A stretch of DNA of 64,000 bases from an uncultured Candidatus Saccharibacteria bacterium (GCA_963717595.1 CAVQWH010000001.1:470266-534265), one strand, 5' to 3'. Shown: positions 38,442 through 64,000, counted from the stretch's first letter. The notes: a model not told the origin generated them from the sequence alone. Numbers and translations: made by a program.

Positions 38442-38667
38442 CGTATTGAGCTTTATAACTCTGCGAGTGACCCAAGACAACCGACTACATTTATTTAGAT
38501 CAGTTCGTTGCTTAAGATGATTTGAGCAGAGCAGTTTGATGACAGGTGCGTCGCCAAGCTGTTCTGCTCAAAGAGTGAAGTTTACTCTGCGAGTGAACTA
38601 CGGCATCGGATTGATCACCCGGTGCCGAATACTTTATCCGATCACAAACGAAAGGAAGGTGATTACC

Positions 38668-40020
38668 GTGCGCAAGCTCGGAATCCTCATCGTCCTGGCC
38701 GCTGTGGTCGGGATGATTTTCACTGCGTTGCCCGCTACCGCCTCGGCAGCTTGGACCCACCTGGGGGGATATCCCCTCTTTTCGGGCATTCCCAACGCTA
38801 GTCAGGAAGGTCGCGATAAGTTCGTCGAAGACATGCTCTCGCCTTACGGTGTTCTTGCTCAGAAGCGCGCTGGCCTGAATAAGGCCGAAAGGCGTGCTTT
38901 CAAGCAGGCGCTGGTTCATGGCGAATTTAAGAAGTGCACGCTCCACTACGGGGATCACTTCGAAGCCATGTCTTTCGGGACTGAACCCATGCTCGTGGAC
39001 AAGGACGTCACGTTTGAAGACGAACGCTACAAGAGCCACGGCTCCCCGGCGTTTTGCGTCAACTTTCGTGTCGGCCACACTCTCACCCGCGTGAAGGCCC
39101 CGTTTGTATGCGAGAACTTCTCCGTGATGTGGAGAAGGCGTGTCCGTATTTCCCATCCTCATCCGCACGTTCGCAAGAAGGGCTGGGGGAAGCTGGTAAA
39201 GGTCACTAAGGACGCCAACGGTGTTAAGACCGAAACGCCCACGAACACTCTTCGTTGGCATATAAAGGTCAAGGCTCCCAAGTGGCGTAACGCCAAGACC
39301 TGGACCCTGGCCCTCAAGCACGACCCGGAACGCCTCGGTGCTTACCCCTGTGGTACCAAGGTTACCTTGGCAGAGGTTAAGCCCATCGGGCCTGACCTTT
39401 GGACGGTCGAGGGTGCGCGCAAGCAAACCATGACCATCTGCCATCGGGCGAAGGTCGTCTTCTACAACCGACAGAAAGGCGGAACGCCTCCCGAAGAAGA
39501 ACACGGGAGCATCTGCAGCGAAAACGCAGTGAACAACGGTGATGTCTGTGGTGGCACTTGTAACACCACCACGATCATCGTGGGCAGTGGCAACCACGTC
39601 GAAAACAACGTGGAATGCAAGCCGGAAGAACCGCCCGTGTGTACCACGTGTGTGTGCGAAGGCAGCTGCCCGCCGCCCGTCGAACAGTCGATCAGGATTA
39701 CCTCCTGGACCGAAATGAACGACATCCCGGTCGGGAAGTCCAGTGACAACTTCCACGTCGGCGTGTATGCGTCCGATGGGGGAGGAGCTCTGACCATCGA
39801 TCCGGGTAACGGCGGCGTCAACGTCTGCGGGAGTACGCAGCCAGTGATCACGACGTACGTTGTTTCCTTGCAGAAAGGGAGCAATGACGTCTGCGTCAAA
39901 CTGTTTGCCCCCAAAGACACGACGGCGACGTCCATGACGGTGACGGCAACGGCAGTACTCGGGAGCAAGAGTGACGTTAAGTCGCAAACGTTCTCGATCA
40001 GTCACTCCATCCGCCCGTAG
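38668..40020 (+). CDS. GC-rich secreted Cys-rich protein (450 aa from GTG), unknown family
   Basis: GTG 38668 is preceded by aggaaggtga. Signal peptide VRKLGILIVLAAVVGMIFTALPATASA. About 15 Cys, including CTTCVCEGSCPPP. Codons are GC3-rich. The track ORF start at 38536 is probably too far upstream. Confidence 0.65.
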   Translation: MRKLGILIVLAAVVGMIFTALPATASAAWTHLGGYPLFSGIPNASQEGRDKFVEDMLSPYGVLAQKRAGLNKAERRAFKQALVHGEFKKCTLHYGDHFEAMSFGTEPMLVDKDVTFEDERYKSHGSPAFCVNFRVGHTLTRVKAPFVCENFSVMWRRRVRISHPHPHVRKKGWGKLVKVTKDANGVKTETPTNTLRWHIKVKAPKWRNAKTWTLALKHDPERLGAYPCGTKVTLAEVKPIGPDLWTVEGARKQTMTICHRAKVVFYNRQKGGTPPEEEHGSICSENAVNNGDVCGGTCNTTTIIVGSGNHVENNVECKPEEPPVCTTCVCEGSCPPPVEQSIRITSWTEMNDIPVGKSSDNFHVGVYASDGGGALTIDPGNGGVNVCGSTQPVITTYVVSLQKGSNDVCVKLFAPKDTTATSMTVTATAVLGSKSDVKSQTFSISHSIRP

Positions 40021-40047
40021 GTCGGTTGGGCAATAGTAGTCGGTTAG

Positions 40048-40073
40048 GCCAGGGCGCTTTCGAGCGCCCTGGC
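40048..40073 (+). terminator. GC-rich stem-loop after the secreted-protein gene (no U-tract)
   Basis: gccagggcgct (40048-40058) ttcg agcgccctggc (40063-40073). A second 11-bp stem lies at 40079-40089 / 40114-40124. Confidence 0.45.
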
Positions 40074-40133
40074 CGGCCGGCTGCTTCTCTCTCCGCCAAC
40101 TGGTGGATCGATTGAGAAGCAGCCGCAAATCAA

Positions 40134-54719: not shown

Positions 54720-55748
54720 ATGACAAAAGTGTACGTTGGCATGAGCGGCGGTGTGGACAGCTCTCTTACCGCGGCTTTGCTAAAAGAACAAGGCTTTGAA
54801 GTAACTGGTGTCTACATGAAAAACTGGACGCAGGATCTGCCCGGTATGAAATGCCCGTGGGCAGATGATCTGGCCGATGCCAAGCGTGTAGCCGTGCAGC
54901 TGGGCATTCCGTTCAAAGTTTACGACTTTGAAAAAGACTATCGACACAAAGTAGTAGACTACATGGTGGCAGAATATAAAGCTGGCCGCACGCCCAACCC
55001 AGACATCATGTGCAACCAAGAAGTGAAGTTTAAGCTATTTTTAGAAACTGCTCTGGAAGACGGCGCCGATTTAATCGCCACCGGCCATTATTCGCGCGTA
55101 AAAGACGGCCAGCTTTGGGCTGGTGTAGATAAAAACAAAGACCAGTCTTACTTTCTTTACCGTGTGACTGAAAAAGCTTTACAAAAAACTTTAATGCCCA
55201 TCGGCGAGCTAGAAAAGACAGAGGTTAGAAAACTAGCTGCGAAACTAGGCCTTGTAACGGCGGATAAAAAAGACAGCCAGGGCATTTGCTTCGTAGGCAA
55301 AGTTGGCATAAAAGACTTTTTGCTTAACGAGCTTGGCCCACAGTCAATTGGGCCGATTATTGATCAAAACAGTAAAGAAATCGGCCAGCATGACGGCGCA
55401 ATTTTCTACACCATTGGCCAGCGCCACGGCCTTAACGTCGGTGGCGGTTTGCCATATTACGTCACTAAAAAAGACATCAAAACCAACACGGTTTATGTAA
55501 CGATCGACTTGAACGACGAAAATCTGTGGGCTAAAGAGCTGAATTTAGAAGATTTGCACTGGATAAATGAGAAGCCGGGTGAGGGCAAAAAATACCAAGC
55601 CCGCCTGCGCTACCGCGGCCCGCTGGTGCCGTGCAAAATTAGCGGCAGCCAGCTTACGTTAGAGCAAGAACAGCGCGGCATCGCCGCCGGCCAATCAGCC
55701 GTGATTTACAATGGCGACAAAGTCCTCGGCGGCGGAATAATTAGCTAG
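54720..55748 (+). CDS. mnmA: tRNA-specific 2-thiouridylase
   Basis: PP-loop GMSGGVDSS, ATGHY, GICFVG motifs. Confidence 0.9.
   Translation: MTKVYVGMSGGVDSSLTAALLKEQGFEVTGVYMKNWTQDLPGMKCPWADDLADAKRVAVQLGIPFKVYDFEKDYRHKVVDYMVAEYKAGRTPNPDIMCNQEVKFKLFLETALEDGADLIATGHYSRVKDGQLWAGVDKNKDQSYFLYRVTEKALQKTLMPIGELEKTEVRKLAAKLGLVTADKKDSQGICFVGKVGIKDFLLNELGPQSIGPIIDQNSKEIGQHDGAIFYTIGQRHGLNVGGGLPYYVTKKDIKTNTVYVTIDLNDENLWAKELNLEDLHWINEKPGEGKKYQARLRYRGPLVPCKISGSQLTLEQEQRGIAAGQSAVIYNGDKVLGGGIIS
55550..55748 (+). repeat. direct repeat copy 1 (functional mnmA 3' end)
   Basis: 199 bp, collinear with 57321-57519. Roughly 25 mismatches by eye and no indels. Confidence 0.85.
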
Positions 55749-55778
55749 TGATACAATGTAAGTAATAGGAGATGATTT

Positions 55779-56111
55779 GTGAAATTAGTAATTATCCTCG
55801 GTGTCATATTTGTATTATGGGAAGGCTTTATAACACACTTATTTCCAGCTCATAGTCGAGAGCATTATGAAAAGGCAGCGCAAAAATGGTCAACTGGTCT
55901 TCCACTAGCTTTGATTGGCTGGATGGATATGCTAAGTATGTTTGGGCTAGCTGTAGTTTGCATAGCTAGTTTTTTTGTTATGTCTGTAATCCAGGCTCTT
56001 ATATTCTGCGGAGTCATAATTATTATTCTTTTATTTAACCCTGCAGTTCTAAAAAGCAGAAAACAATACACTAATACACTGAAAGCTGCTAAAGAAAGAC
56101 ATAAAAAATAA
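55779..56111 (+). CDS. small membrane protein (110 aa)
   Basis: GTG start after taggagatgatt; 3 TM helices. Confidence 0.4.
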   Translation: MKLVIILGVIFVLWEGFITHLFPAHSREHYEKAAQKWSTGLPLALIGWMDMLSMFGLAVVCIASFFVMSVIQALIFCGVIIIILLFNPAVLKSRKQYTNTLKAAKERHKK

Positions 56112-56210
56112 ACCTTTTCCTAACCCATTCTTATATATAAGTTATTGACAGCACGGCTACTACCTAAGTTGTTCTGTATGTTAGAGTAGTTTTGTAGCTA
56201 AGGTTATGAG

Positions 56211-56819
56211 ATGAAGAATACTATACACCTGTCAAATAAAGTAGGGATAATTTTAGTTGTAGCACTAGTCTTATTTTTTGCTAGTTTACTACTTTATATA
56301 AAGTTTTATTCAAAACCTCATACCGAAATTTATATACCAAATGTAGTTGGAGAAGAGTTAACCCAAGACCCTAAACTTGTATCTGATGCAAAACAACTTG
56401 GTATAGACTACTCACCTATTAACTGGGAGTTCGTAGAAAGTATACCCAACACTAACTACGATGATATAACCCCAGGGACTGCTATAATAGGCGGTTTTAC
56501 CGCTCCCAACTCCATACAAGTAAAATCTGGTATGGGTAAGCAGCAGGAGCTGCAAACAGTCGCTTACGAATACTTACACTATAAGTGGACTCAATATACC
56601 CCTAACCAGAAAGCTAAGTTAGAAAACCTACTGCAGAGGTTCTACGATAATAAGCTCTATTTTAGAGAGGCGACTAAAGCAATCACCGGAAGTGCTGATG
56701 TTTTAGGAGATGAACGCAACTCAATGGCTTGTACAGTAATCCAACCATATTTGCTAACCCAAGCTTTTAACGACTACTGTGATAGTCTTATTCCAAACCG
56801 CACCATTTTATTTCCTTAA
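56211..56819 (+). CDS. membrane-anchored hypothetical protein (202 aa)
   Basis: One N-terminal TM helix. No motif was recognised. Confidence 0.4.
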   Translation: MKNTIHLSNKVGIILVVALVLFFASLLLYIKFYSKPHTEIYIPNVVGEELTQDPKLVSDAKQLGIDYSPINWEFVESIPNTNYDDITPGTAIIGGFTAPNSIQVKSGMGKQQELQTVAYEYLHYKWTQYTPNQKAKLENLLQRFYDNKLYFREATKAITGSADVLGDERNSMACTVIQPYLLTQAFNDYCDSLIPNRTILFP

Positions 56820-56870
56820 TTTGGGTAAATAATTTTCCCCACCTGCCACACATACATGTTTGGCATTGAA

Positions 56871-56894
56871 ATGTTATAGCTTTTGCTATAACAT
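56871..56894. promoter_or_regulatory. perfect 10-bp palindrome (candidate operator)
   Basis: atgttatagc-tttt-gctataacat, immediately upstream of ATG 56905. Confidence 0.35.
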
Positions 56895-56904
56895 AAATAT
56901 AAGT

Positions 56905-57072
56905 ATGAGCAATAATCACCCTAGGCATTTACGTCCTACTCCAGCACATAAAAGTGTTCGCAGGAGCACGCCGACAGCTCTCTCTTCTTCCCAAAAAAAG
57001 AGAGCTAATCAAGCTGCAAAGAAAATTGTAAACCAATACGGAAAGACCCTTAAACTATTAGCGCAGCGATAA
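56905..57072 (+). CDS. small basic protein, candidate antitoxin of the adjacent Doc remnant
   Basis: 55 aa. Its stop lies 1 nt before the ATG of the Doc-like gene. Track ORF 56860 starts inside the palindrome, so ATG 56905 is preferred. Confidence 0.3.
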   Translation: MSNNHPRHLRPTPAHKSVRRSTPTALSSSQKKRANQAAKKIVNQYGKTLKLLAQR

Positions 57073-57073
57073 A

Positions 57074-57341
57074 ATGTTTCGACCTTAACGAAGCTGAGTA
57101 TTTAGTTCATAGAATTGCAAAAGAAACCTTTGAAAAGAAGCTTGGCTTTAAAGAGCCGATGCCAGACTTTAAAAATCGCTATAAAGGAAGACTTGAAAGC
57201 TGTCTAAAGCAACCTTTAGTAAGGTTTGATGGAAAATACCTATATAGAGGGCTTGCCAAAAAAGGCGTAGCACTCTTTTACTTTTGCTCAAAAGACCATC
57301 CTTTTGAAAACGGTAATAAAAGATTTGCAGTGGGTAAATGA
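57074..57341 (+). pseudogene. doc: Doc/Fic-family toxin gene remnant, 3'-truncated at the Fic motif and out of frame with its ATG
   Basis: The frame reads FDLNEAEYLVHRIAKETF...CLKQPLVRFDGKYLY...HPFENGNKRFA, then runs into the mnmA-derived repeat. ATG 57074 is 1 nt out of frame at a T3 run. Confidence 0.65.
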
Positions 57342-57519
57342 GAAGCCAAGCGAAGGCAAAAAATACCAAGCCCGCCTGCGCTACCGCGGTCCGCTGGTGC
57401 CGTGCAAAATCAGTGGCAATCAGCTCACGCTAGAGCAAGAACAGCGCGGCATCGCCGCCGGCCAATCAGCTGTTATTTACGATGGAGACAAAGTTCTTGG
57501 CGGCGGAGTAGTAACCTAG
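57321..57519 (+). pseudogene. displaced, diverged copy of the mnmA 3' end (direct repeat copy 2)
   Basis: Encodes DLQWVNEKPSEGKKYQARLRYRGPLVPCKISGNQLTLEQEQRGIAAGQSAVIYDGDKVLGGGVVT. mnmA encodes DLHWINEKPGEGKKYQARLRYRGPLVPCKISGSQLTLEQEQRGIAAGQSAVIYNGDKVLGGGIIS. Confidence 0.85.
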
Positions 57520-57634
57520 ACTTAGTAGTAAAAAGTGTTATAATAAATCTAATTCTTGTCTGTATGGACAAGTCCGCCGTGAGGTGAAGGAGGTTCAACA
57601 GCTCACCTGTTGACGCACATAGGAGGTTGGCCGT

Positions 57635-58066
57635 ATGGCTGATCGGCTGAAAAAGATCGACTGTAAAATAATCGACGGTCCCTCAAGATGGCATTTGATG
57701 CAAAGCCTATTTGCTCGTGAGGAATTGAGATTTAGGCTTGATGGTGCTTTCAAGCAGCGGACTGAACAGTTTGTGATCGTACGGGTCAGAGCGCTTGCAA
57801 ATGAGGTATCACAAGAGTTCAGCGCTCAGATCAAAAAACTGAACGCAAATGTCCCAAGCGACATAAACAGTAGTTGGCTGGTGATGGGGTACATGAGGGT
57901 CTTTCGTGACGTTCACTGCACCTACGCTGTCTTCATTATGTACTCCGATTCTGCTCGCAAGGGTCTGTTGCATGCTGTTCAGTATGGTGACGAGCCATTT
58001 GAGGAGCTCAAGCTACCCCCTATCAGCAAATGTGCTGACTTGATCGTAAGAGGGCAGGCGGCCTAA
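57635..58066 (+). CDS. moderately GC-enriched orphan protein (143 aa), unknown function
   Basis: AGGAGG lies 8 nt upstream of the ATG. An upstream TGtTATAAT extended -10 is present. Two leader hairpins precede it and a terminator follows. Confidence 0.5.
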   Translation: MADRLKKIDCKIIDGPSRWHLMQSLFAREELRFRLDGAFKQRTEQFVIVRVRALANEVSQEFSAQIKKLNANVPSDINSSWLVMGYMRVFRDVHCTYAVFIMYSDSARKGLLHAVQYGDEPFEELKLPPISKCADLIVRGQAA

Positions 58067-58139
58067 GACTGGTTTGATGGGTAGGCAGGTCTCAACTAGA
58101 GATAAGAGCGGTCCGAAACCCGCCACCTTCTGCCTAAAA

Positions 58140-58170
58140 GCCCCTTAGAATCTAAGGGGCTAATTTTATT
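58140..58170. terminator. bidirectional intrinsic terminator
   Basis: ccccttag (58141-58148) / ctaagggg (58152-58159), followed by a T-run, between convergent genes. Confidence 0.55.
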
Positions 58171-58627
58171 GGTAATCTTTTTGGTAGTTTCCTTTAACTT
58201 CTACTTTTTTACCTTCAACATTTGTATAAGAGAATTTATAAGCCTGCTCATCGCCTCTAACTTGATATTTAAAATGAGGGAGCTTAGCTGTGTCTTTGAT
58301 GTCTTTAAGTTCTGATTTTTTGATTGTTGGAAAATCTTTAGAACTATCTTTAATGGTCTGAACCATAAAATTGATATCAATAGGGTAATTTCCCTCTACA
58401 ACATAATACAGGTTTAGCACACTTTTTAAGTATTCTGCACGTGCTTTATATAGCCTAGCGTACTTATCAGTATTTGCACTAATATCAGCTTTGTTTTGTT
58501 CTTTTTGAGTAATATGATGTGGCGAAGTATTTTGAGAAATAAAAAGAAGAATAATTATTACTCCTAAGACTATAGCTACCCCTCCTATTAACTGTTCTCT
58601 ACTTAAACTATGGTCCTGTTGCGCCAT
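58166..58627 (-). CDS. membrane-anchored hypothetical protein (153 aa)
   Basis: One N-terminal TM helix. No motif was recognised. Confidence 0.45.
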   Translation of the reverse strand: MAQQDHSLSREQLIGGVAIVLGVIIILLFISQNTSPHHITQKEQNKADISANTDKYARLYKARAEYLKSVLNLYYVVEGNYPIDINFMVQTIKDSSKDFPTIKKSELKDIKDTAKLPHFKYQVRGDEQAYKFSYTNVEGKKVEVKGNYQKDYQ

Positions 58628-58711
58628 CTTTTGTCCCCTGTACTTAAAGTTTGAATTGGAATTATTATAACACTACAGATGCTATGGCGGTTATATACTA
58701 AACAAACCCAA

Positions 58712-59456
58712 TTAGATTAAGTCGCTACTTTTACCTAAATTACAATCCTGGCACAAAGTTTGTAGATTATCTAAAGTATTTTCACCACCTTTAGAGAATG
58801 GTTTTATGTGGTCAATATGTAGAATTGTGCCTGCATCGGTAGCGGGACTTTTCCCACAGTACACACAACGAAACTTATCTCTACTCAATACTTTCACTCG
58901 TAGGTTTAATGGAATTGTCCTAGTTTTGGAAGTCTTAGGTGCTATAGGTTTAATTATTTTAACTTTAGGGGAATTAACTTTGCGAACCTTACTTATACCA
59001 CTATCTTCTGTTACTTTTTCGCCAGACTTGTACTCAATAAACTTTAGGCAGGCGTTCGTCCAACCGCCAAAATGTCGGTAAAGAGTATCGTAGCTTATCA
59101 CGGGGCGAGCACTGGTCTGATTCGTCTCTAGAGGGACGGTGACCGAGCATACGCCAAATCCTTTCCATTTCATCAAACATCTCTTGTTCAGAGTATGACT
59201 TTCTTCTAGTCGTGATACGGAATTTAATACCCTTAGCCTTTAAGTGTTCGGCTAAAAACTGCAACGCTTTTTCCCAAGATCCAAACTCCCTATAAATCGT
59301 GTAGTCACTAATCCCAGCAATTTTATTAAAGTCACTTTGCCTAAAGTCTGTGTAGTTGAAATGCTCCGCAACCTTTTCAAGTTCAGAGACCATTTTCTTC
59401 CTGGATATTTTACTAGCTTGCCGCCGCTCTAGCTCAAACTTAAAGTCGTCAGACAT
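58712..59456 (-). CDS. HNH endonuclease with two N-terminal FG(S/G)W repeat modules, split by a frameshift
   Basis: ORFs 59034..59456 (..YREFGSWEKAL..) and 58712..59176 (..YRHFGGWTNAC.. CVYCGK...HIDHIKPFSKGGENTLDNLQTLCQDCNLGK). The frame change is near 59125-59145. Confidence 0.75.
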
Positions 59457-59465
59457 ACTTATAAA

Positions 59466-60401
59466 CTACTTCCCAGCTTTAGATATTTTACCTAGCGTAT
59501 CTTCAAAATCGCCCTTTATCTTCAAAGGTTTTTCTGAGCTATATGGAGTAGCGGGATTGCGACTCACGCCTAGCTCAAGCTGATTTGAAGTTTGATTATT
59601 CTTTAACGCTTTCCTTTGTCGGTTAGCCTCTGCTTGAAGTAGCTCAAATCTTTCTTCTTGTGACTTACCTTGTTCAATATACATTGAATTTAAGCTTTCA
59701 AGGTTAGATAAAAGAATTAACTGGCTAATAGTGGCGTAATCTCTTTGATTAAATCCTCCCTTAGCTTTGTCTGTATTAGTCTTCTTCCATTCAGAAGCCG
59801 AGAGACCAAAGACTATTAAATTAAGTAAGTCGGCTTCATTAGCATAGTGAATACCGTGCTTTGCAGTGGGCAGATTTGAGCTTGGTATTATAGAATTTTT
59901 TACTGCCACTGTTTGTAGCTTGTAGTTAACCATTGATAGATAACGTCTACTGTCCCACAGTTGAAGATTGCCTTCGTTTTCTTTAAGACGCTGAAATTCT
60001 TTAATAAGCAAAAGTTTAAATTCTGGGCTAATCCATGTACCAAACTCAAAGGCTATATCCACATGTGCATAAGTCCCTCCATAGCGACCTGATTTTGACA
60101 CAATTCCGATTGCATTTGTGGCTGTAGCCCACTTTCTTGGCGTGTTCGTAAAGCTGTTAAGGCCTGCTTGTTTTTTAAAGGTGTCGAATTCGACACCTTT
60201 AAAATCTGGGTTGTGGATACTTTCCCAAATTCCCAAAAATTCCACTACATTTCTATTACGCATCCAGTTATATATAGCCTGGTCTCCGCCATAGTTGCGT
60301 GCCATGTCAGTCAAAGAAATATAATCTTTATTATCAACCTTAGCTACGCTAATAGTAATGTCGTCTACATTCAAAAATGTCTTTCGCTTTTTAGGTACCA
60401 T
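59466..60401 (-). CDS. KilA-N domain DNA-binding protein
   Basis: ISLTDMARNYGG...NWMRNRNVVEFLGIWE...GRYGGTYAHVDIAFEFGTWISPEFKLLLIKEFQRLK. Confidence 0.8.
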   Translation of the reverse strand: MVPKKRKTFLNVDDITISVAKVDNKDYISLTDMARNYGGDQAIYNWMRNRNVVEFLGIWESIHNPDFKGVEFDTFKKQAGLNSFTNTPRKWATATNAIGIVSKSGRYGGTYAHVDIAFEFGTWISPEFKLLLIKEFQRLKENEGNLQLWDSRRYLSMVNYKLQTVAVKNSIIPSSNLPTAKHGIHYANEADLLNLIVFGLSASEWKKTNTDKAKGGFNQRDYATISQLILLSNLESLNSMYIEQGKSQEERFELLQAEANRQRKALKNNQTSNQLELGVSRNPATPYSSEKPLKIKGDFEDTLGKISKAGK

Positions 60402-60405
60402 ACTT

Positions 60406-61281
60406 TTATCCTATCAACTCCATGTAAGTTAATCTATTATTAATATTTATAAACCAATTTTTAAATCGTTCACTATCGTCTAATTTTCTAGTGTTATATC
60501 TAAATTCAGTTTCACTACAATACTTTTGCAAATGTTTTGGGCTGACATGGTGGTAAATACCATAAATACTTCGCTTTAACTGAGACCAAATATTTTCAAT
60601 ATTTTGTGTATGAGTCAAGCCAGCTACATATTGCTGGGTTAAGTGATTAACCACACTGTGCTTATAGCCACGGCGACCAAGGGTTTTGTAAGCTTGCCAC
60701 TGGTCACTATAGATTTGAGACAATGGAGTAACATTCTTGGTTATTTCAGGCATTAAAACCCTAACCCCGGAACTTTTTACATGCTTGAGCCTACTATTAC
60801 CATCACGCTCAACCATGCCAAACACAACCGATTTTTCTGCTAGCTTTTTAAAAGCACGGTTACGGGATTTGCCGCCAATATATGTTTCGTCTATTTCTAC
60901 ACTGCCACTTAGTAAATCATCATTGCCTTTTTCTAGGGCATAGCGTATCCGTTGCAGCATAAACCATGCTGTTTTCTGGGTTACTCCAGCATACTTACTT
61001 AGTTGCACCGATGATATACCTTTTTTGAGAGAAGTGGCTAGGTATATAGCTAAAAACCATTTATAAAGTGGGACTTTGCTATCACTAAAAATAGTGCCAA
61101 CCTTAGCAGTAAATTGTTTACGACAATCACCGCACTTGAAAAGCTTTCCGTTGGTAAACTTATAAGTCTTTAAGCTACCACAATGGGGGCAGATTGCTTT
61201 ATTTCCCCAGCGGGCTTTTTCCAAATAATCCAAGCAAGCTTGTTCAGAGCTAAATTTTTGTTGAAACTCTACCAGATTCAT
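60406..61281 (-). mobile_element. IS1595-family (ISXO2-like) DDE transposase gene; element ends not identified
   Basis: N-terminal zinc ribbon CPHCGS...FKCGDCRKQF and the VEIDETYIGGK core. Its stop lies 4 nt before the KilA-N start. Confidence 0.8.
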
Positions 61282-61340
61282 ACCCCTATTTTATCAAAGA
61301 TAGTTGGGTGTGTCAAGTATATAATTGCCGATGCTATATA

Positions 61341-61369
61341 TTGACAAAACTACTGTTTTTTGCTATAGT
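61341..61369 (+). promoter_or_regulatory. sigma70-like promoter (TTGACA-17-TATAGT), close to the start codon
   Basis: TTGACA at 61341-61346 and TATAGT at 61364-61369. The ATG is at 61381. Confidence 0.5.
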
Positions 61370-61380
61370 ATCATACTGCT

Positions 61381-62118
61381 ATGACAAACCATAACCAACA
61401 CCAGTCACCAAGGCCACCACTTCCCGAAACATTGGACACTTTTTTGGATAGGCACGATTTGCCAAAAGAGCAAATTACTCTTGATAAAGTGGCTAATGAT
61501 GTGGCGATTAACGCGTTGGTTAGTCGGCTTTCCCAGGAAGAATCCCGTGCAGAGCGCGCCGGTATCGACTTTAAGACAGGCTGTTTGAATGAAACTGGTT
61601 TTAACGAATTTTTGAGCCAGCGAGATAAACTTGGCCGCCGTTCAAGCGACGTTTTGCCCAATGGCACGCTGGTGTTGGTGGTTGATATGGATAAACTGAA
61701 AGAAGTTAATGACAGCTTAGGCCACGGAACTGGTAATAAAGCTATTAAAACGGTTGCCGATGGTATTAAAGCTTCTTTGCGTGAAGGTGATGTAGTGGCA
61801 CGAATTGGCGGCGACGAATTTGTAGCGGTCGTAGATATTTATGCCAGCAATCCTGGCGAAATCCAAGAGCAAATCTTGGCCAAAGTTCAGGGCGCACTTG
61901 CGCATCTAGGCGTGGAAGTGTCTAATAAGGCATTGATAGTTAGGGGTAATAGTCCCTATGTCGACGGTGCCTTACACGGCAATACACTAAAAATTAGTGC
62001 TAGTGTTGGTGGCAAATATATTAGAGGCTTTGGCAGCAGCGAAAGAGTTCGCGAAGCTATTGAAGAAGCTGACGCTAAAATGTACGAACGCAAACGTGCC
62101 GCTGGCGTTGCACGCTAA
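61381..62118 (+). CDS. GGDEF-domain diguanylate cyclase
   Basis: RIGGDEFVAV active-site motif; 245 aa with no obvious sensor domain. Confidence 0.85.
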   Translation: MTNHNQHQSPRPPLPETLDTFLDRHDLPKEQITLDKVANDVAINALVSRLSQEESRAERAGIDFKTGCLNETGFNEFLSQRDKLGRRSSDVLPNGTLVLVVDMDKLKEVNDSLGHGTGNKAIKTVADGIKASLREGDVVARIGGDEFVAVVDIYASNPGEIQEQILAKVQGALAHLGVEVSNKALIVRGNSPYVDGALHGNTLKISASVGGKYIRGFGSSERVREAIEEADAKMYERKRAAGVAR

Positions 62119-62159
62119 CACTACCCCTGATAGATAAAATGCGTTAAAATAGCCTAAGT

Positions 62160-64000
62160 ATGAATGCTCAGGAGATTCGAAAGGCATATTTAGATTTTTA
62201 TGCTAAAAAGCAGCACGCGGTTATTCCACGGGCCAGTTTAGTGCCTAAAGACGACCCAACAACGCTTTTTACAGGCAGCGGTATGCAGCCGATGATTCCT
62301 TATTTATTAGGAGAAAAACACCAAGACGGCAAACGCTTGGTCGACAGCCAGGTGTGTTTGCGGGCGCAAGATATCGATGAAGTGGGAGATGAAAGCCACA
62401 CGACTTCTTTTGAGATGCTTGGCAATTGGTCGCTGGGTGACTACTACAAAACAGAGCAAATCCAGTGGATAGCTGAGTTTTTGTTTGACATCGTAGGCTT
62501 GGATCCGAATAAGGTCTACGTTTCTTGCTATATAGGAAATAAAAAATATGGCATTCCACAAGATGAAGAAGCAATTAAATTGTGGCAATCTGAGTTTAAA
62601 AAGCGTGGTATTGACGCCAAAGTTGTTGAGATTGGTTCGGCAGAAAACGGAGCGAAAACTGGCATGCAGGGCGGTCGCATTTTTCTCTATGACGGCAAAG
62701 AAAATTGGTGGAGCCGTAACGGCGATGAAGACGGGACGCTTGTAGGTGACCCGTGTGGGCCGGATTCAGAAATGTTTTATGACTTCGGTGAAGAGCATCA
62801 CGATGAAAAAAAGTGGGGCAAACCGCATCCTGCCAGTGACTCACCGCGCTTTTTTGAAATCGGAAATAATGTGTTTATGGGCTACAAAAAACTTGCCCAG
62901 GGCAAGTTTGATAAGCTTTCTGATCCTAATATCGACCATGGTTCGGGCTTGGAGCGTATCGCCGCAGCTGCGCTAGACAGCCCTGATGTTTTTAAAATAA
63001 GCCTTATATGGCCAATTATTGAAAAGTTGGAAGACATATCTGGCAAAAGCTATGATAGCCACACCAACGCTATGCGCGTGATTGCAGACCACTTGCGTGG
63101 CGCTACATTCCTAGCAGTGGATGGCATAACGCCAAGCAATAAAGAGCAAGGCTATGTGATGCGGCGCTTGCTGCGCCGGGCAATCCGCTTTGCCTTGGAA
63201 TTGGGTGTAGAGCAGAATTTTATGCAAGAAATCGTGCCGGTGATTGCCGGTATTTACCATGAAGACTTCCCAGAAGTTGCTAAAAATCGTGACAAAGTTC
63301 TAGAGGTGCTGGCGAAAGAGGAAAAAGTCTTTAGGCAAACTCTGCGCAAAGGCCTCCGCGAGTTTGATAATTTCATTCGACTTGCTGAGAACCAGCCAAT
63401 TACCGGCAAGGTTATTTTTACACTTTATGATACATACGGTTTTCCATCCGAGCTTAGCTTGGAAGAGGCTTATAAACGCGGAATCGAAGTGAGTAAAAGT
63501 TGGCAAAAAGAATTTGACTCCAACATGCAAGAACAGCGAGAACGTAGCCAAACTGCAACCAAAGGCGTTTTTAAAGGCGGCTTGGCTGATCATTCCAGTG
63601 AGACCAAAAAACTCCATACCGCAACACACTTAATGTATGAAGCTTTGCGCCAAATACTGGGCGACCATGTGGTGCAGCGTGGCAGTAACGTAAATGCCGA
63701 GCGCACGCGCTTTGACTTTTCTCAACCTGAAAAGGTGACCCGTGAGCAGCTAGATGAAGTAGAGAAAATCGTCAACAAACAGATTGAAAAAGATCTTAGT
63801 GTCGATTGGAAAGAATATCCGACAGACGAAGCTTTCAAAATGGGAGCCAAGGGTGCGTTTGGTGATAAATATGGCGATAAGGTCAAGGTTTACACCATGG
63901 GCAAGCCTGGTGAAAAACCGTTTAGCATTGAGATTTGCGGTGGCCCGCACGTAGAACATACCGGCCAGCTAGGCGAGGGTGACAAGAAATTCAAAATCAC
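62160..64000 (+). CDS. alaS: alanine--tRNA ligase (5' part; continues past the window)
   Basis: Read by eye from ATG 62160: MNAQEIRKAYLDFYAKKQHAVIPRASLVPKDDPTTLFTGSGMQP...FEMLGNWSLGDYY...HGSGLERI...HTATHLMYEALRQ...CGGPHV. It is absent from the track because no stop occurs in the window. Confidence 0.9.
   Translation, partial: MNAQEIRKAYLDFYAKKQHAVIPRASLVPKDDPTTLFTGSGMQPMIPYLLGEKHQDGKRLVDSQVCLRAQDIDEVGDESHTTSFEMLGNWSLGDYYKTEQIQWIAEFLFDIVGLDPNKVYVSCYIGNKKYGIPQDEEAIKLWQSEFKKRGIDAKVVEIGSAENGAKTGMQGGRIFLYDGKENWWSRNGDEDGTLVGDPCGPDSEMFYDFGEEHHDEKKWGKPHPASDSPRFFEIGNNVFMGYKKLAQGKFDKLSDPNIDHGSGLERIAAAALDSPDVFKISLIWPIIEKLEDISGKSYDSHTNAMRVIADHLRGATFLAVDGITPSNKEQGYVMRRLLRRAIRFALELGVEQNFMQEIVPVIAGIYHEDFPEVAKNRDKVLEVLAKEEKVFRQTLRKGLREFDNFIRLAENQPITGKVIFTLYDTYGFPSELSLEEAYKRGIEVSKSWQKEFDSNMQEQRERSQTATKGVFKGGLADHSSETKKLHTATHLMYEALRQILGDHVVQRGSNVNAERTRFDFSQPEKVTREQLDEVEKIVNKQIEKDLSVDWKEYPTDEAFKMGAKGAFGDKYGDKVKVYTMGKPGEKPFSIEICGGPHVEHTGQLGEGDKKFKI

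What the first reader, a model, noticed from the sequence alone, without database searches (positions are those of the whole stretch)
55550..57519. 199-bp diverged duplication of the mnmA 3' end flanks a 1.6-kb islet; the right junction truncates a Doc toxin at a 9-bp microhomology
**Seen in the sequence:**
- 55550-55748 (the end of intact mnmA) and 57321-57519 are collinear copies. I counted about 25 substitutions by eye and no gaps.
- Between them lie a 110-aa membrane protein, a 202-aa protein, a small basic ORF and a Doc/Fic gene.
- The Doc reading frame ends HPFENGNKRFA and then continues straight into mnmA-derived codons.
- The 9-mer agatttgca encodes RFA of the Fic motif region. It is also the first 9 nt of the mnmA repeat (55550-55558 and 57321-57329).
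- No integrase is present.

**Inference:** this is the signature expected from homology-facilitated illegitimate recombination. One end is anchored by homology inside mnmA and the other is joined at a microhomology. That fits uptake of DNA from a related strain better than integrase-mediated insertion. Natural transformation has been reported for cultivated Saccharibacteria, which would fit if this is one.
Basis: partly seen in the sequence, partly recalled or inferred. Interest (0 to 1): 0.65.

Follow-up and report, generated by a model that had tools for sequence, protein, structure and literature searches.

The report
Recombination scar beside mnmA in Saccharibacteria
A 1.6-kb piece of phage-related DNA sits after the mnmA gene of an uncultivated Saccharibacterium, joined on its right side, at a 10-base chance match inside a now-truncated Doc toxin gene, to a leftover 3' end of a second, diverged mnmA allele; this is the kind of scar left when foreign DNA is pasted in using homology at one end only, a known process not yet documented in this group.

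Summary
Window 55550-55748 and 57321-57519 are ungapped copies with 23 substitutions (88.4% identity). The homology ends exactly at the mnmA stop codon. The Doc frame is cut after HPFENGNKRFA(V) at a shared 10-mer, AAGATTTGCA. An independent Logan contig reproduces both junctions.

Most differences between the copies are synonymous. The two copies are therefore 3' ends of two once-functional mnmA alleles from different lineages, not an in-situ duplication.

The only close relative found is L247 (about 79% nt identity). It has the same synteny but unrelated genes between mnmA and GGDEF-alaS. In 111 related loci this interval ranges from 12 to 5249 bp. No integrase was found in or near this interval in the window or in its relatives.

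The 3' half of the intact mnmA is much less diverged from L247 at synonymous codons (0.78) than the backbone (0.52). The remnant copy is backbone-like (0.62).

Best reading: homology-facilitated illegitimate recombination. The homologous crossover lies inside mnmA, near 55.2-55.3 kb. The illegitimate join lies at 57320-57333. The event imported phage-derived cargo and a Doc module that is now disabled.

Still open: the polarity of the event, the DNA-uptake route, and a rival in which a later microhomology-mediated deletion made the junction. This is a new member of a known kind, of moderate interest.

The parts
54720..55748 (+). Intact mnmA (342 aa), the tRNA 2-thiouridine synthase gene.
   Evidence: Pfam tRNA_Me_trans HUP, PRC-barrel and C-terminal domains. 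The sister ortholog is P0012.
54918..54923 (+). Ancestral chimera breakpoint in mnmA at codons 67/68. Upstream residues carry the signature of the syntenic clade and downstream residues that of a distant clade. The sister genome shares this breakpoint, so it is older than the scar.
   Evidence: 9 of 9 diagnostic residues are clade-2 type before aa 68, and 23 of 27 are clade-1 type after it (Fisher p=7.6e-6, permutation p<0.0005). L247 shows the same pattern.
55260..55748 (+). 3' tract of mnmA with reduced synonymous divergence from sister genome L247. This is the candidate homologous (anchor) part of the imported DNA.
   Evidence: Synonymous-codon identity is 0.78 (n=141) against a backbone of 0.516 (n=2620), p=3.5e-10. 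The best changepoint is at 55260.
55549..55748 (+). Repeat copy A, the last 200 nt of the intact mnmA.
55749..57319 (+). The islet: 1.57 kb at 36.6% GC, against 42.6% for the window. It is absent from the sister genome.
55779..56111 (+). p110, a small protein with about three TM segments and a very basic C-terminus. Its topology is holin-like. No homologs were found.
   Evidence: The holin-like reading is inference from topology only.
56211..56819 (+). p202, an N-terminally membrane-anchored protein. It belongs to a small family whose wider consensus carries HExxH plus an invariant Glu; this subfamily has YExxH. Homologs lie in phage virion modules.
   Evidence: Family search and alignments. 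Viral contigs L250-L254, with portal, head, internal virion protein and endolysin neighbours. Phage-like contig L162. The AlphaFold2 model has pLDDT 91.8 but no significant PDB match.
56905..57072 (+). A small basic protein (55 aa from the ATG; the ORF is open from 56860). It is the conserved upstream partner of this Doc subfamily and the presumed antitoxin.
   Evidence: Homologous small ORFs ending ...AAKKIV..YGKTLKLLAKE lie directly upstream of Doc homologs in L164, L165 and L166. No Pfam hit.
57075..57341 (+). Truncated doc: the Fic motif HPFENGNKR is intact, about 45 C-terminal residues are missing, and the frame ends VGK* inside mnmA-derived sequence.
57320..57333 (+). Illegitimate junction. 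It contains the 10-nt microhomology AAGATTTGCA at 57320-57329. G57330 is specific to copy B and fits the Val codon of Doc.
57320..57519 (+). Repeat copy B, an orphan 3' end of a second mnmA allele. Its frame is still open.
57517..58161 (+). A promoter-like site directly after the copy-B stop codon, then p143 (57635-58066, no homologs), then a strong terminator at 58139-58161. This is the context that followed mnmA in the copy-B lineage.
58166..61338 (-). The rest of the variable interval: p153, a frameshifted HNH endonuclease (58712-59456), a KilA-N protein matching PADLOC PDC-S22 (59466-60401) and an IS1595-type transposase (60406-61281).
61339..64000 (+). The conserved right flank. Homology to the sister genome resumes at 61339. 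It holds the GGDEF gene (61381-62118) and alaS (from 62160, running off the end of the window).

Best explanation
**What it is.** This is a recombination scar at an accessory-gene hotspot between mnmA and GGDEF-alaS in a Saccharibacteria genome.

**How it most likely arose (inferred).**
- DNA from a related but distinct lineage, about 12% diverged at this locus, entered the cell.
- That DNA carried the 3' part of its own mnmA (copy A), followed by a phage-derived cassette: a holin-like p110, the virion-module protein p202, and a small antitoxin-like gene with doc.
- Its left end recombined homologously inside the resident mnmA, probably near 55.2-55.3 kb.
- Its right end lay inside doc. It was joined illegitimately to the resident mnmA at a 10-nt microhomology, AAGATTTGCA.
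- This pushed the resident last 199 nt of mnmA (copy B) and its downstream neighbour p143 to the far side of the insert.

**Result.** One intact hybrid mnmA, 1.57 kb of new DNA, a Doc toxin gene that lacks its C-terminal third and is therefore disabled, an orphan antitoxin-like gene, and an orphan mnmA 3' end.

**What is shown.** The repeat, the junction, the truncation, the purifying-selection pattern of the differences, the absence of recombinases, the variability of the interval, and the low-divergence tract in mnmA.

**What is inferred.** The order of events, which copy was resident, and that uptake was by natural transformation.
For: **The repeat and the junction**
- 199-nt ungapped repeat, 23 mismatches, ending exactly at the stop codon.
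- Mismatches fall 6/2/15 by codon position (p=0.003), and only 8 of 65 codons differ in amino acid. Both copies therefore diverged while they were functional genes.
- Doc is cut within its conserved core. All eight homologs continue for about 45 more residues, and that missing part is nowhere in the window.
- A 10-nt identical run sits at the join (chance about 6e-6).
- Both junctions appear in an independent Logan contig.

**The sister genome and the hotspot**
- Sister genome L247 has identical synteny on both sides. It has unrelated genes in the interval, 1.83 kb against 5.59 kb in the window.
- The mnmA-to-alaS spacing varies from 12 to 5249 bp in 111 relatives.
- The interval ORFs of 41 relatives include no integrase.
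- None of 160 related loci has a second mnmA 3' end.

**Evidence for recombination in the flanks**
- Synonymous-codon identity to L247 is 0.78 in mnmA 55260-55745 against 0.516 in 10 backbone genes (p=3.5e-10). Copy B scores 0.615, which is compatible with the backbone and not with 0.78 (p=0.007).
- alaS aa 51-300 is also mosaic relative to L247.

**The cargo is mobile DNA**
- p202 homologs sit in phage structural modules.
- The same small-partner-plus-Doc pair occurs on other mobile contexts.

**Literature**
- comEC-dependent natural transformation has been demonstrated in Saccharibacteria (PMC10633639).
- HFIR joins at 3-10 bp (PMC6382021, citing de Vries & Wackernagel 2002, Prudhomme et al. 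2002 and Meier & Wackernagel 2003).
- Displaced orphan 3' gene ends have been explained the same way in Vibrio cholerae T6SS arrays (PMC5361080).
Against: - No donor-type genome with mnmA-p110-p202-antitoxin-full-length doc was found in genome, metagenome, viral or protein collections.
- The direct contrast between copy A and copy B in distance to the sister is not significant: 38/54 against 32/52, p=0.41. In site counts it is 15 against 7, p=0.13. Polarity is therefore only weakly indicated.
- The low-divergence tract could reflect an import into the sister lineage instead, or locally constrained synonymous sites.
- With copy A incoming, the donor's own mnmA 3' end had 88% homology to the resident copy. 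It nevertheless ended up as an insertion rather than a replacement, which must be a rare outcome.
- The route of DNA entry is not addressed by any sequence evidence.
- The clear chimera at mnmA codon 67/68 is ancestral, being shared with L247. It is not the anchor of this event.
Confidence: 0.55

Rival explanations
1. The same kind of event with the opposite polarity. The resident genome already had mnmA(A)-p110-p202-antitoxin-full doc. Incoming DNA carried mnmA(B) 3' end-p143-...-GGDEF/alaS. It was anchored by homology on the right, in GGDEF or alaS. Its left end joined illegitimately inside doc at the microhomology, deleting the doc 3' end and whatever followed it.
For: - This is the classical insertion-deletion topology of HFIR.
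- alaS aa 51-300 is a replaced segment relative to the sister.
- GGDEF shows somewhat higher synonymous identity (0.61) than the backbone.
- It explains without further steps why a fragment of mnmA lies in the middle of accessory DNA.
Against: - Copy B is backbone-like in its distance to the sister, while the 3' half of the intact mnmA is the unusually similar, recently exchanged part.
- The region to the right of copy B contains an IS and decayed genes, and its GC content is heterogeneous. It does not look like one fresh import.
Confidence: 0.2
2. A two-step origin. A second mnmA allele first came to lie in tandem. This could have happened by Campbell-type single-crossover integration of a circular molecule, or by a site-specific element that carried an mnmA 3' end as its attachment site. 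A later intramolecular deletion between the 10-nt direct repeats in doc and in the second mnmA then removed the rest of the element, including any integrase. The junction would be a deletion scar, not an HFIR joint.
For: - Short-repeat-mediated deletions are common. This rests on established knowledge.
- The cargo is phage-derived, and the neighbourhood holds other phage or defence remnants: KilA-N, HNH and an IS.
- A 10-nt direct repeat is just as good a substrate for slippage or deletion.
Against: - It needs more events.
- No integrase lies in the window from 38.5 kb onwards or in the homologous interval of 41 relatives and the sister.
- None of 160 related loci shows mnmA as a recurrent attachment site with a duplicated 3' end.
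- The islet is only 1.57 kb.
Confidence: 0.17
3. An in-situ tandem duplication of the mnmA 3' end followed by drift, with the islet inserted between the copies by an unrelated process.
For: The copies are collinear and direct.
Against: - 12% divergence concentrated at third codon positions, with an intact frame in the non-functional copy, is not what neutral decay of a remnant gives.
- The left repeat boundary coincides with a truncated foreign gene.
- The two copies have unrelated downstream sequence from the first base after the stop codon.
Confidence: 0.03
4. An assembly artefact that merges two co-occurring strains with different mnmA alleles.
For: - The source is probably a metagenome-derived genome.
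- The repeats share identical stretches of 35-40 nt that can confuse assemblers.
Against: - A separate k-mer assembly (Logan, ERR11523667) gives one contig running from copy-A-specific bases through the islet and the doc'::mnmA join into copy-B-specific bases.
- Only 10 nt are shared at the join, too few to create a false k-mer path.
- It is not known whether that run is independent of the window's own data.
Confidence: 0.05

Closest known systems
Homology-facilitated illegitimate recombination (HFIR) during natural transformation in Acinetobacter baylyi, Streptococcus pneumoniae and Pseudomonas stutzeri
   Same: One end of the foreign DNA is integrated through a homologous anchor and the other through a 3-10 nt microhomology. 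The event is independent of any recombinase. It traps foreign genes next to a conserved gene (PMC6382021 and the references in it).
   Different: - Here the process is inferred from a natural scar and was not observed.
- The donor is unknown.
- In the favoured polarity the outcome duplicates 199 nt of the anchor gene instead of deleting recipient DNA.
- The organism is an uncultivated Saccharibacterium.
Orphan 3' gene ends and orphan immunity genes in Vibrio cholerae T6SS effector-immunity arrays and in Rhs/CDI loci
   Same: An incoming module with a conserved 5' region displaces the resident variable 3' end downstream, where it remains as an orphan fragment. HFIR has been proposed as the mechanism (PMC5361080).
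   Different: - The anchor gene here is a housekeeping tRNA-modification gene, not a polymorphic toxin.
- There is a single displacement, not an array.
- The cargo is phage-derived and includes a toxin-antitoxin remnant.
Integrase-mediated genomic islands inserted in the 3' end of a gene that carry a replacement 3' end (for example SGI1 at the 3' end of trmE/mnmE; from my own knowledge)
   Same: A direct repeat of a gene's 3' end flanks inserted DNA, and the gene stays intact.
   Different: - There is no integrase.
- The left edge of the second copy lies inside a truncated unrelated ORF.
- The site is not reused in 160 relatives.
- The islet is only 1.57 kb.
Phd/Doc toxin-antitoxin module of phage P1 (Fic-fold kinase toxin; from my own knowledge)
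   Same: A Doc-type Fic motif HPFENGNKR, and a small upstream partner gene whose stop abuts the toxin gene.
   Different: - The toxin is truncated after about residue 85 of about 130.
- The partner has no detectable similarity to Phd/YefM.

Membership tests
HFIR product | One junction lies at a short (3-10 nt) microhomology between otherwise unrelated sequences. | tested here: met
   AAGATTTGCA (10 nt) is shared by doc and mnmA. Doc homology runs up to it (Pfam alignment through A85; homologs read NKRFAV), and mnmA homology starts at it.
HFIR product | The other end was integrated by homologous recombination within an anchor shared by donor and recipient. | tested here: inconclusive
   mnmA 55260-55745 has synonymous-codon identity of 0.78 to the sister against 0.516 for the backbone (p=3.5e-10), which fits a recombination tract ending at the islet. 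The tract could belong to another event or to the sister lineage.
HFIR product | The DNA between the junctions is foreign to the recipient. | tested here: met
   - The islet is absent from sister L247 and from 160 related loci.
- Its GC is 36.6% against 42.6% for the window.
- p202 homologs lie in phage virion modules.
HFIR product | A donor arrangement exists in which the cargo, including full-length doc, follows mnmA. | tested here: not met
   No such locus was found in genome contigs, metagenome contigs, viral contigs or the 5.8-billion-protein collection. Sampling of this genus is very sparse.
HFIR product | Dependence on DNA uptake (ComEC) and RecA. | not testable with these tools
   Competence has been shown only for a cultivated Saccharibacterium (PMC10633639).
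Integrase-mediated island at a gene 3' end | A tyrosine or serine recombinase is encoded in or next to the island. | tested here: not met
   - Pfam scans of the named ORFs between 38.5 and 62.1 kb gave no recombinase hit, and alaS fills the window from 62160 on.
- phmmer with an integrase query against all window ORFs of 80 aa or more found nothing.
Integrase-mediated island at a gene 3' end | The same attachment site is used repeatedly in related genomes. | tested here: not met
   None of 160 related loci has a second mnmA 3' copy. No integrase appears among the interval ORFs of 41 relatives and the sister.
Integrase-mediated island at a gene 3' end | An identical core sequence sits at both ends of the island. 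| tested here: inconclusive
   A 10-nt identical run starts both repeat copies. At the right end, however, it lies inside a truncated ORF.
Doc (Fic-fold) toxin | The Doc-type Fic motif H-x-F-x-[DN]-[AG]-N-K-R. | tested here: met
   HPFENGNKR. Pfam Fic E 1.4e-5, PHROG Doc-like toxin E 7e-7.
Doc (Fic-fold) toxin | A complete domain of about 120-140 aa. | tested here: not met
   The sequence ends 3 codons after NKRFA. The homologs are 121-140 aa and have about 45 further residues.
Doc (Fic-fold) toxin | A cognate small antitoxin gene lies immediately upstream. | tested here: met
   A conserved small ORF lies upstream of doc in the window and in L164, L165 and L166. Antitoxin activity is inferred, not shown.

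The most novel reading that the evidence does not exclude
The mnmA-to-alaS interval is a phylum-wide hotspot in Saccharibacteria. Accessory, phage-derived and defence genes would be exchanged there by natural transformation, using the conserved flanking genes as homology arms. This scar would be the first natural footprint of one-sided (HFIR) integration in CPR/Patescibacteria. It would show that competence shapes gene content in these reduced epibiont genomes, not only nucleotide scavenging.
Probability: 0.35. Interest if true: 0.55.

Novelty: new member of a known kind. Interest (0 to 1): 0.38.

Why it matters
Saccharibacteria have tiny genomes. They were only recently shown to be naturally transformable in the laboratory, and whether competence brings new genes into wild populations is unknown.

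A datable scar helps here. It shows one homologous end and one microhomology end, at a site whose flanking genes (mnmA and alaS) are themselves mosaics and whose content differs in every relative. This is concrete genomic evidence that recombination with diverged DNA remodels these genomes without integrases.

It also marks the mnmA-alaS interval as a natural neutral or insertion site for genetic work. It gives an example of a toxin gene being disarmed by the same event that imported it.

The mechanism is well known in other bacteria, so this extends known biology rather than revealing a new principle.

Tried and rejected
1. **Taking the mnmA chimera at codon 67/68 as the anchor of this event.** Rejected. 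Sister genome L247 carries the same chimera, so it is ancestral.
2. **An N-terminal frameshift in doc.** The ATG at 57074 is out of frame, but homologs in L164 and L165 have the same layout, with the Doc frame open across the partner's stop and no ATG. It is not evidence of decay.
3. **Looking for the missing doc 3' end elsewhere in the window,** to test for a simple insertion into doc. Nothing was found.
4. **Looking for close relatives.** The best in genome contigs was 78% and in metagenome contigs 80%. Only the protein collection gave one sister, P0012/L247. Neither an empty site nor a donor arrangement was found.
5. **Exact-protein look-ups.** p202 returned only the source contig and one Logan contig. 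The exact MnmA protein is not on record.
6. **Rfam and tRNA scans of the region,** to test for a tRNA-type attachment site. Nothing was found between 57.4 and 64 kb.
7. **Repeat search for att-like or TIR-like repeats flanking the islet.** Only the 203-nt repeat flanks it. One 22-nt inverted repeat brackets p143/p153 instead.
8. **Function of p202.** The model is confident, but there is no significant fold match (best E 0.37, with IrrE/PprI among the weak hits). There are weak Pfam M78 and SprT hits in a few family members only. The zincin-like reading stays tentative.
9. **GC and GC3 as a polarity test.** Uninformative.
10. **LepA-based check of genome affiliation.** It shows only that the clade-1 genomes are not among the 80 best matches.


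Full report
**1. Observation**

The two stretches 55550-55748 and 57321-57519 align without gaps and differ at 23 of 199 positions, which is 88.4% identity. The repeat finder reports them as a 203-nt pair spaced 1771 nt apart.

Homology stops exactly at the TAG stop codon of both copies. To the left it begins in a perfectly shared 10-mer, AAGATTTGCA, at 55549-55558 and 57320-57329.

Between the copies lie four genes:
- a 110-aa protein with about three TM segments;
- a 202-aa N-terminally anchored protein;
- a small basic ORF;
- a Fic/Doc fragment.

The Doc frame reads ...HPFENGNKRFAVGK*. The Pfam Fic alignment reaches the Ala encoded at 57327-57329.

A Logan assembly of run ERR11523667 holds a 1715-bp contig that is identical to 55670-57384. 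It breaks inside the longest identical stretches of the repeat and carries allele-specific bases of both copies and both junctions.

**2. The two copies are alleles, not a decayed duplicate**

The 23 differences fall 6/2/15 on codon positions 1/2/3 (p=0.003). Only 8 of 65 codons change the amino acid, and the remnant copy keeps an open frame. Most of the divergence therefore accumulated while both sequences were parts of functional mnmA genes in separate lineages. They were brought together recently.

**3. The junction truncates doc**

Eight full-length homologs of this Doc subfamily (121-140 aa, 55-75% identity) were found. Seven of them read HPFENGNKRFAV and then continue for about 45 residues. 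None of that C-terminal part is present anywhere in the 64-kb window.

The small ORF upstream is the conserved partner of this subfamily. Homologous ORFs ending ...AAKKIV..YGKTLKLLAKE precede doc in L164, L165 and L166.

Homologs have Val (GTN) after RFA. G57330 is specific to copy B when compared with copy A and with the sister genome. Doc-derived sequence may therefore extend to 57332, which puts the join within 57320-57333. A run of 10 or more identical bases at a random junction has a probability of about 6e-6.

**4. Genomic context**

The window is from a Saccharibacterium. The native neighbours are metG-tatD-p145-iscS-DUF218-mnmA on the left and GGDEF-alaS on the right. alaS starts at 62160 and runs off the window.

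In 111 of 160 related loci alaS follows mnmA, at a distance of 12 to 5249 bp with a median of 541 bp. In the window the distance is 6411 bp.

The ORFs in this interval in 41 relatives and the sister are GGDEF proteins, pilin-like proteins, dehydrogenases and surface proteins. No integrase, resolvase or transposase appears among families with E below 7e-9. None of the 160 loci has a second mnmA 3' end.

In the window, the Pfam scans of the named ORFs between 38.5 and 62.1 kb gave no recombinase hit. A phmmer search with an integrase query against all window ORFs of 80 aa or more also found nothing. The only recombination enzyme nearby is an IS1595-type transposase at 60406-61281.

**5. The sister genome**

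The large protein collection yielded one close relative, P0012, on a 778-kb contig (L247). Its synteny with the window is identical on both sides, at 77-80% nt identity. Homology ends at the mnmA stop and resumes 42 bp before the GGDEF gene, at 61339. The sister's interval is 1.83 kb and shares no gene with the window's 5.59 kb. So the interval is a hotspot of gene turnover, and the islet is not ancestral.

In the 199-nt region the identities are:
- copy A to copy B, 88.4%;
- copy A to sister, 85.4%;
- copy B to sister, 81.4%.

The site patterns are A=B≠S 21, A=S≠B 15 and B=S≠A 7. A and B are thus each other's closest relatives, and B has the longer branch, though not significantly (p=0.13).

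**6. Mosaicism of the flanks**

mnmA is a chimera. All nine clade-diagnostic residues up to aa 67 are of the type found in the syntenic clade. After aa 68, 23 of 27 are of the type found in a distant, higher-GC clade (Fisher p=7.6e-6). I first took this for the anchor of the present event. The sister genome has the same pattern, so the chimera is older.

A second, younger signal does bear on the event. Identity at synonymous codons between the window and the sister is 0.516 over ten backbone genes (n=2620). It is 0.63 in mnmA 54720-55259 and 0.78 in 55260-55745 (p=3.5e-10), with the best changepoint at 55260.

Over the same 65 codons, copy A scores 0.70 and copy B 0.615. Copy B is compatible with the backbone value (p=0.41) but not with 0.78 (p=0.007). 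The direct A-versus-B contrast is not significant (p=0.41).

alaS is mosaic too. Residues 51-300 are 62% identical to the sister but 74-90% identical to two other genomes.

**7. The cargo**

The p202 family comprises about 80 sequence clusters. Its wider consensus has HExxH and an invariant Glu, while this subfamily has YExxH.

Homologs at 36-47% identity sit between internal-virion and tail genes in IMG/VR phage contigs that carry portal, major head and endolysin genes. Another sits at the end of a phage-like contig.

An AlphaFold2 model is confident (pLDDT 91.8) but has no significant PDB match. IrrE/PprI metallopeptidases are among the weak top hits. The function remains tentative.

p110 has a holin-like topology but no homologs.

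To the right of copy B lie:
- p143, with its own promoter-like site directly after the copy-B stop codon;
- a strong terminator;
- p153;
- a frameshifted HNH endonuclease;
- a KilA-N protein matching PADLOC candidate PDC-S22 (E 8e-111);
- the IS1595-type transposase.

**8. Mechanism**

The most economical account is homology-facilitated illegitimate recombination. DNA from a lineage about 12% diverged at this locus recombined homologously within mnmA. Its other end, inside doc, was joined to the resident mnmA at the 10-nt microhomology. This displaced the resident 3' end downstream.

This matches the defining junction type of HFIR, with 3-10 nt microhomologies (PMC6382021). It also matches the displaced orphan 3' ends described for Vibrio cholerae T6SS arrays and Rhs loci (PMC5361080). 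Natural, comEC-dependent transformation has been shown for a cultivated Saccharibacterium (PMC10633639), but nothing in the sequence distinguishes transformation from transduction.

The evidence in section 6 leans weakly toward copy B being resident and copy A plus the islet being imported.

The rivals are:
- the reverse polarity, with a right-hand anchor in GGDEF or alaS;
- a tandem or Campbell-type or integrase-mediated precursor, later trimmed by a deletion between the same 10-nt repeats;
- in-situ duplication, which is disfavoured by the substitution pattern;
- an assembly artefact, which is disfavoured by the Logan contig.

**9. Novelty and verdict**

The mechanism is well known in model competent bacteria. 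Finding its footprint at a phylum-wide variable interval with mosaic flanks in Saccharibacteria makes this a new member of a known kind. No donor arrangement was found, so the reconstruction remains an inference. Interest is moderate.

Noticed in passing
L247 10379-10567 (corresponds to window 55098-55118): The sister genome's mnmA (P0012, 403 aa) carries an in-frame 189-nt insert at 60% GC, encoding a low-complexity Ser/Pro/Ala-rich stretch. The window has 21 nt at this point. The insert lies close to where synonymous similarity between the two genomes starts to rise.
   Followed up: partly
window 38500-40130: This stretch is 58% GC in a 42.6% GC window. A 494-aa ORF on the + strand has a signal/TM-like N-terminus and no Pfam hit, and an equally long antisense ORF overlaps it. 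It may be a foreign gene.
   Followed up: partly
window 57534-57555 and 58653-58674: A 22-nt inverted repeat (91% complementary) brackets the convergent genes p143 and p153. A strong bidirectional terminator lies between them at 58139-58161. Each arm contains a TATAAT-like box. These could be duplicated promoters or the ends of a 1.14-kb cassette.
   Followed up: no
window 59466-61281 (- strand): A KilA-N protein (311 aa) matches PADLOC defence candidate PDC-S22 (E 8e-111). Its gene starts 4 bp after the stop of an IS1595-type transposase gene, so it may be a passenger gene of the IS. A perfect 32-bp palindrome lies inside the KilA-N gene at 60173-60204.
   Followed up: partly
window 58712-59456 (- strand): An HNH endonuclease is split into two overlapping reading frames, one with the HNH_repeat part and one with the HNH domain. 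It is a frameshifted pseudogene. An intact 339-aa HNH_repeat protein lies on the phage-like contig L162, which also carries the p202 homolog.
   Followed up: partly
window 62160-64000 (alaS) compared with L247, L001 and L063: alaS is an intragenic mosaic. Residues 51-300 are 62% identical to the sister genome but 74-90% identical to two otherwise more distant genomes. Residues 451-613 are 86-95% identical to the sister.
   Followed up: partly
L165 5834-6399; L248 and L249: A 70%-identical Doc with the same small partner gene lies on a 62% GC ICE-like locus with Lsr2, ArdA, a relaxase and an integrase, which looks actinobacterial. Distant p202 relatives occur in Actinomycetota MAGs. This hints at gene flow between Saccharibacteria and their actinobacterial hosts.
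   Followed up: no
window 54720-54923: mnmA is an old chimera, with the first 67 codons from the syntenic clade and the rest from a distant clade of 48-59% GC. The sister genome shares it. mnmA has therefore been a recombination target more than once.
   Followed up: yes
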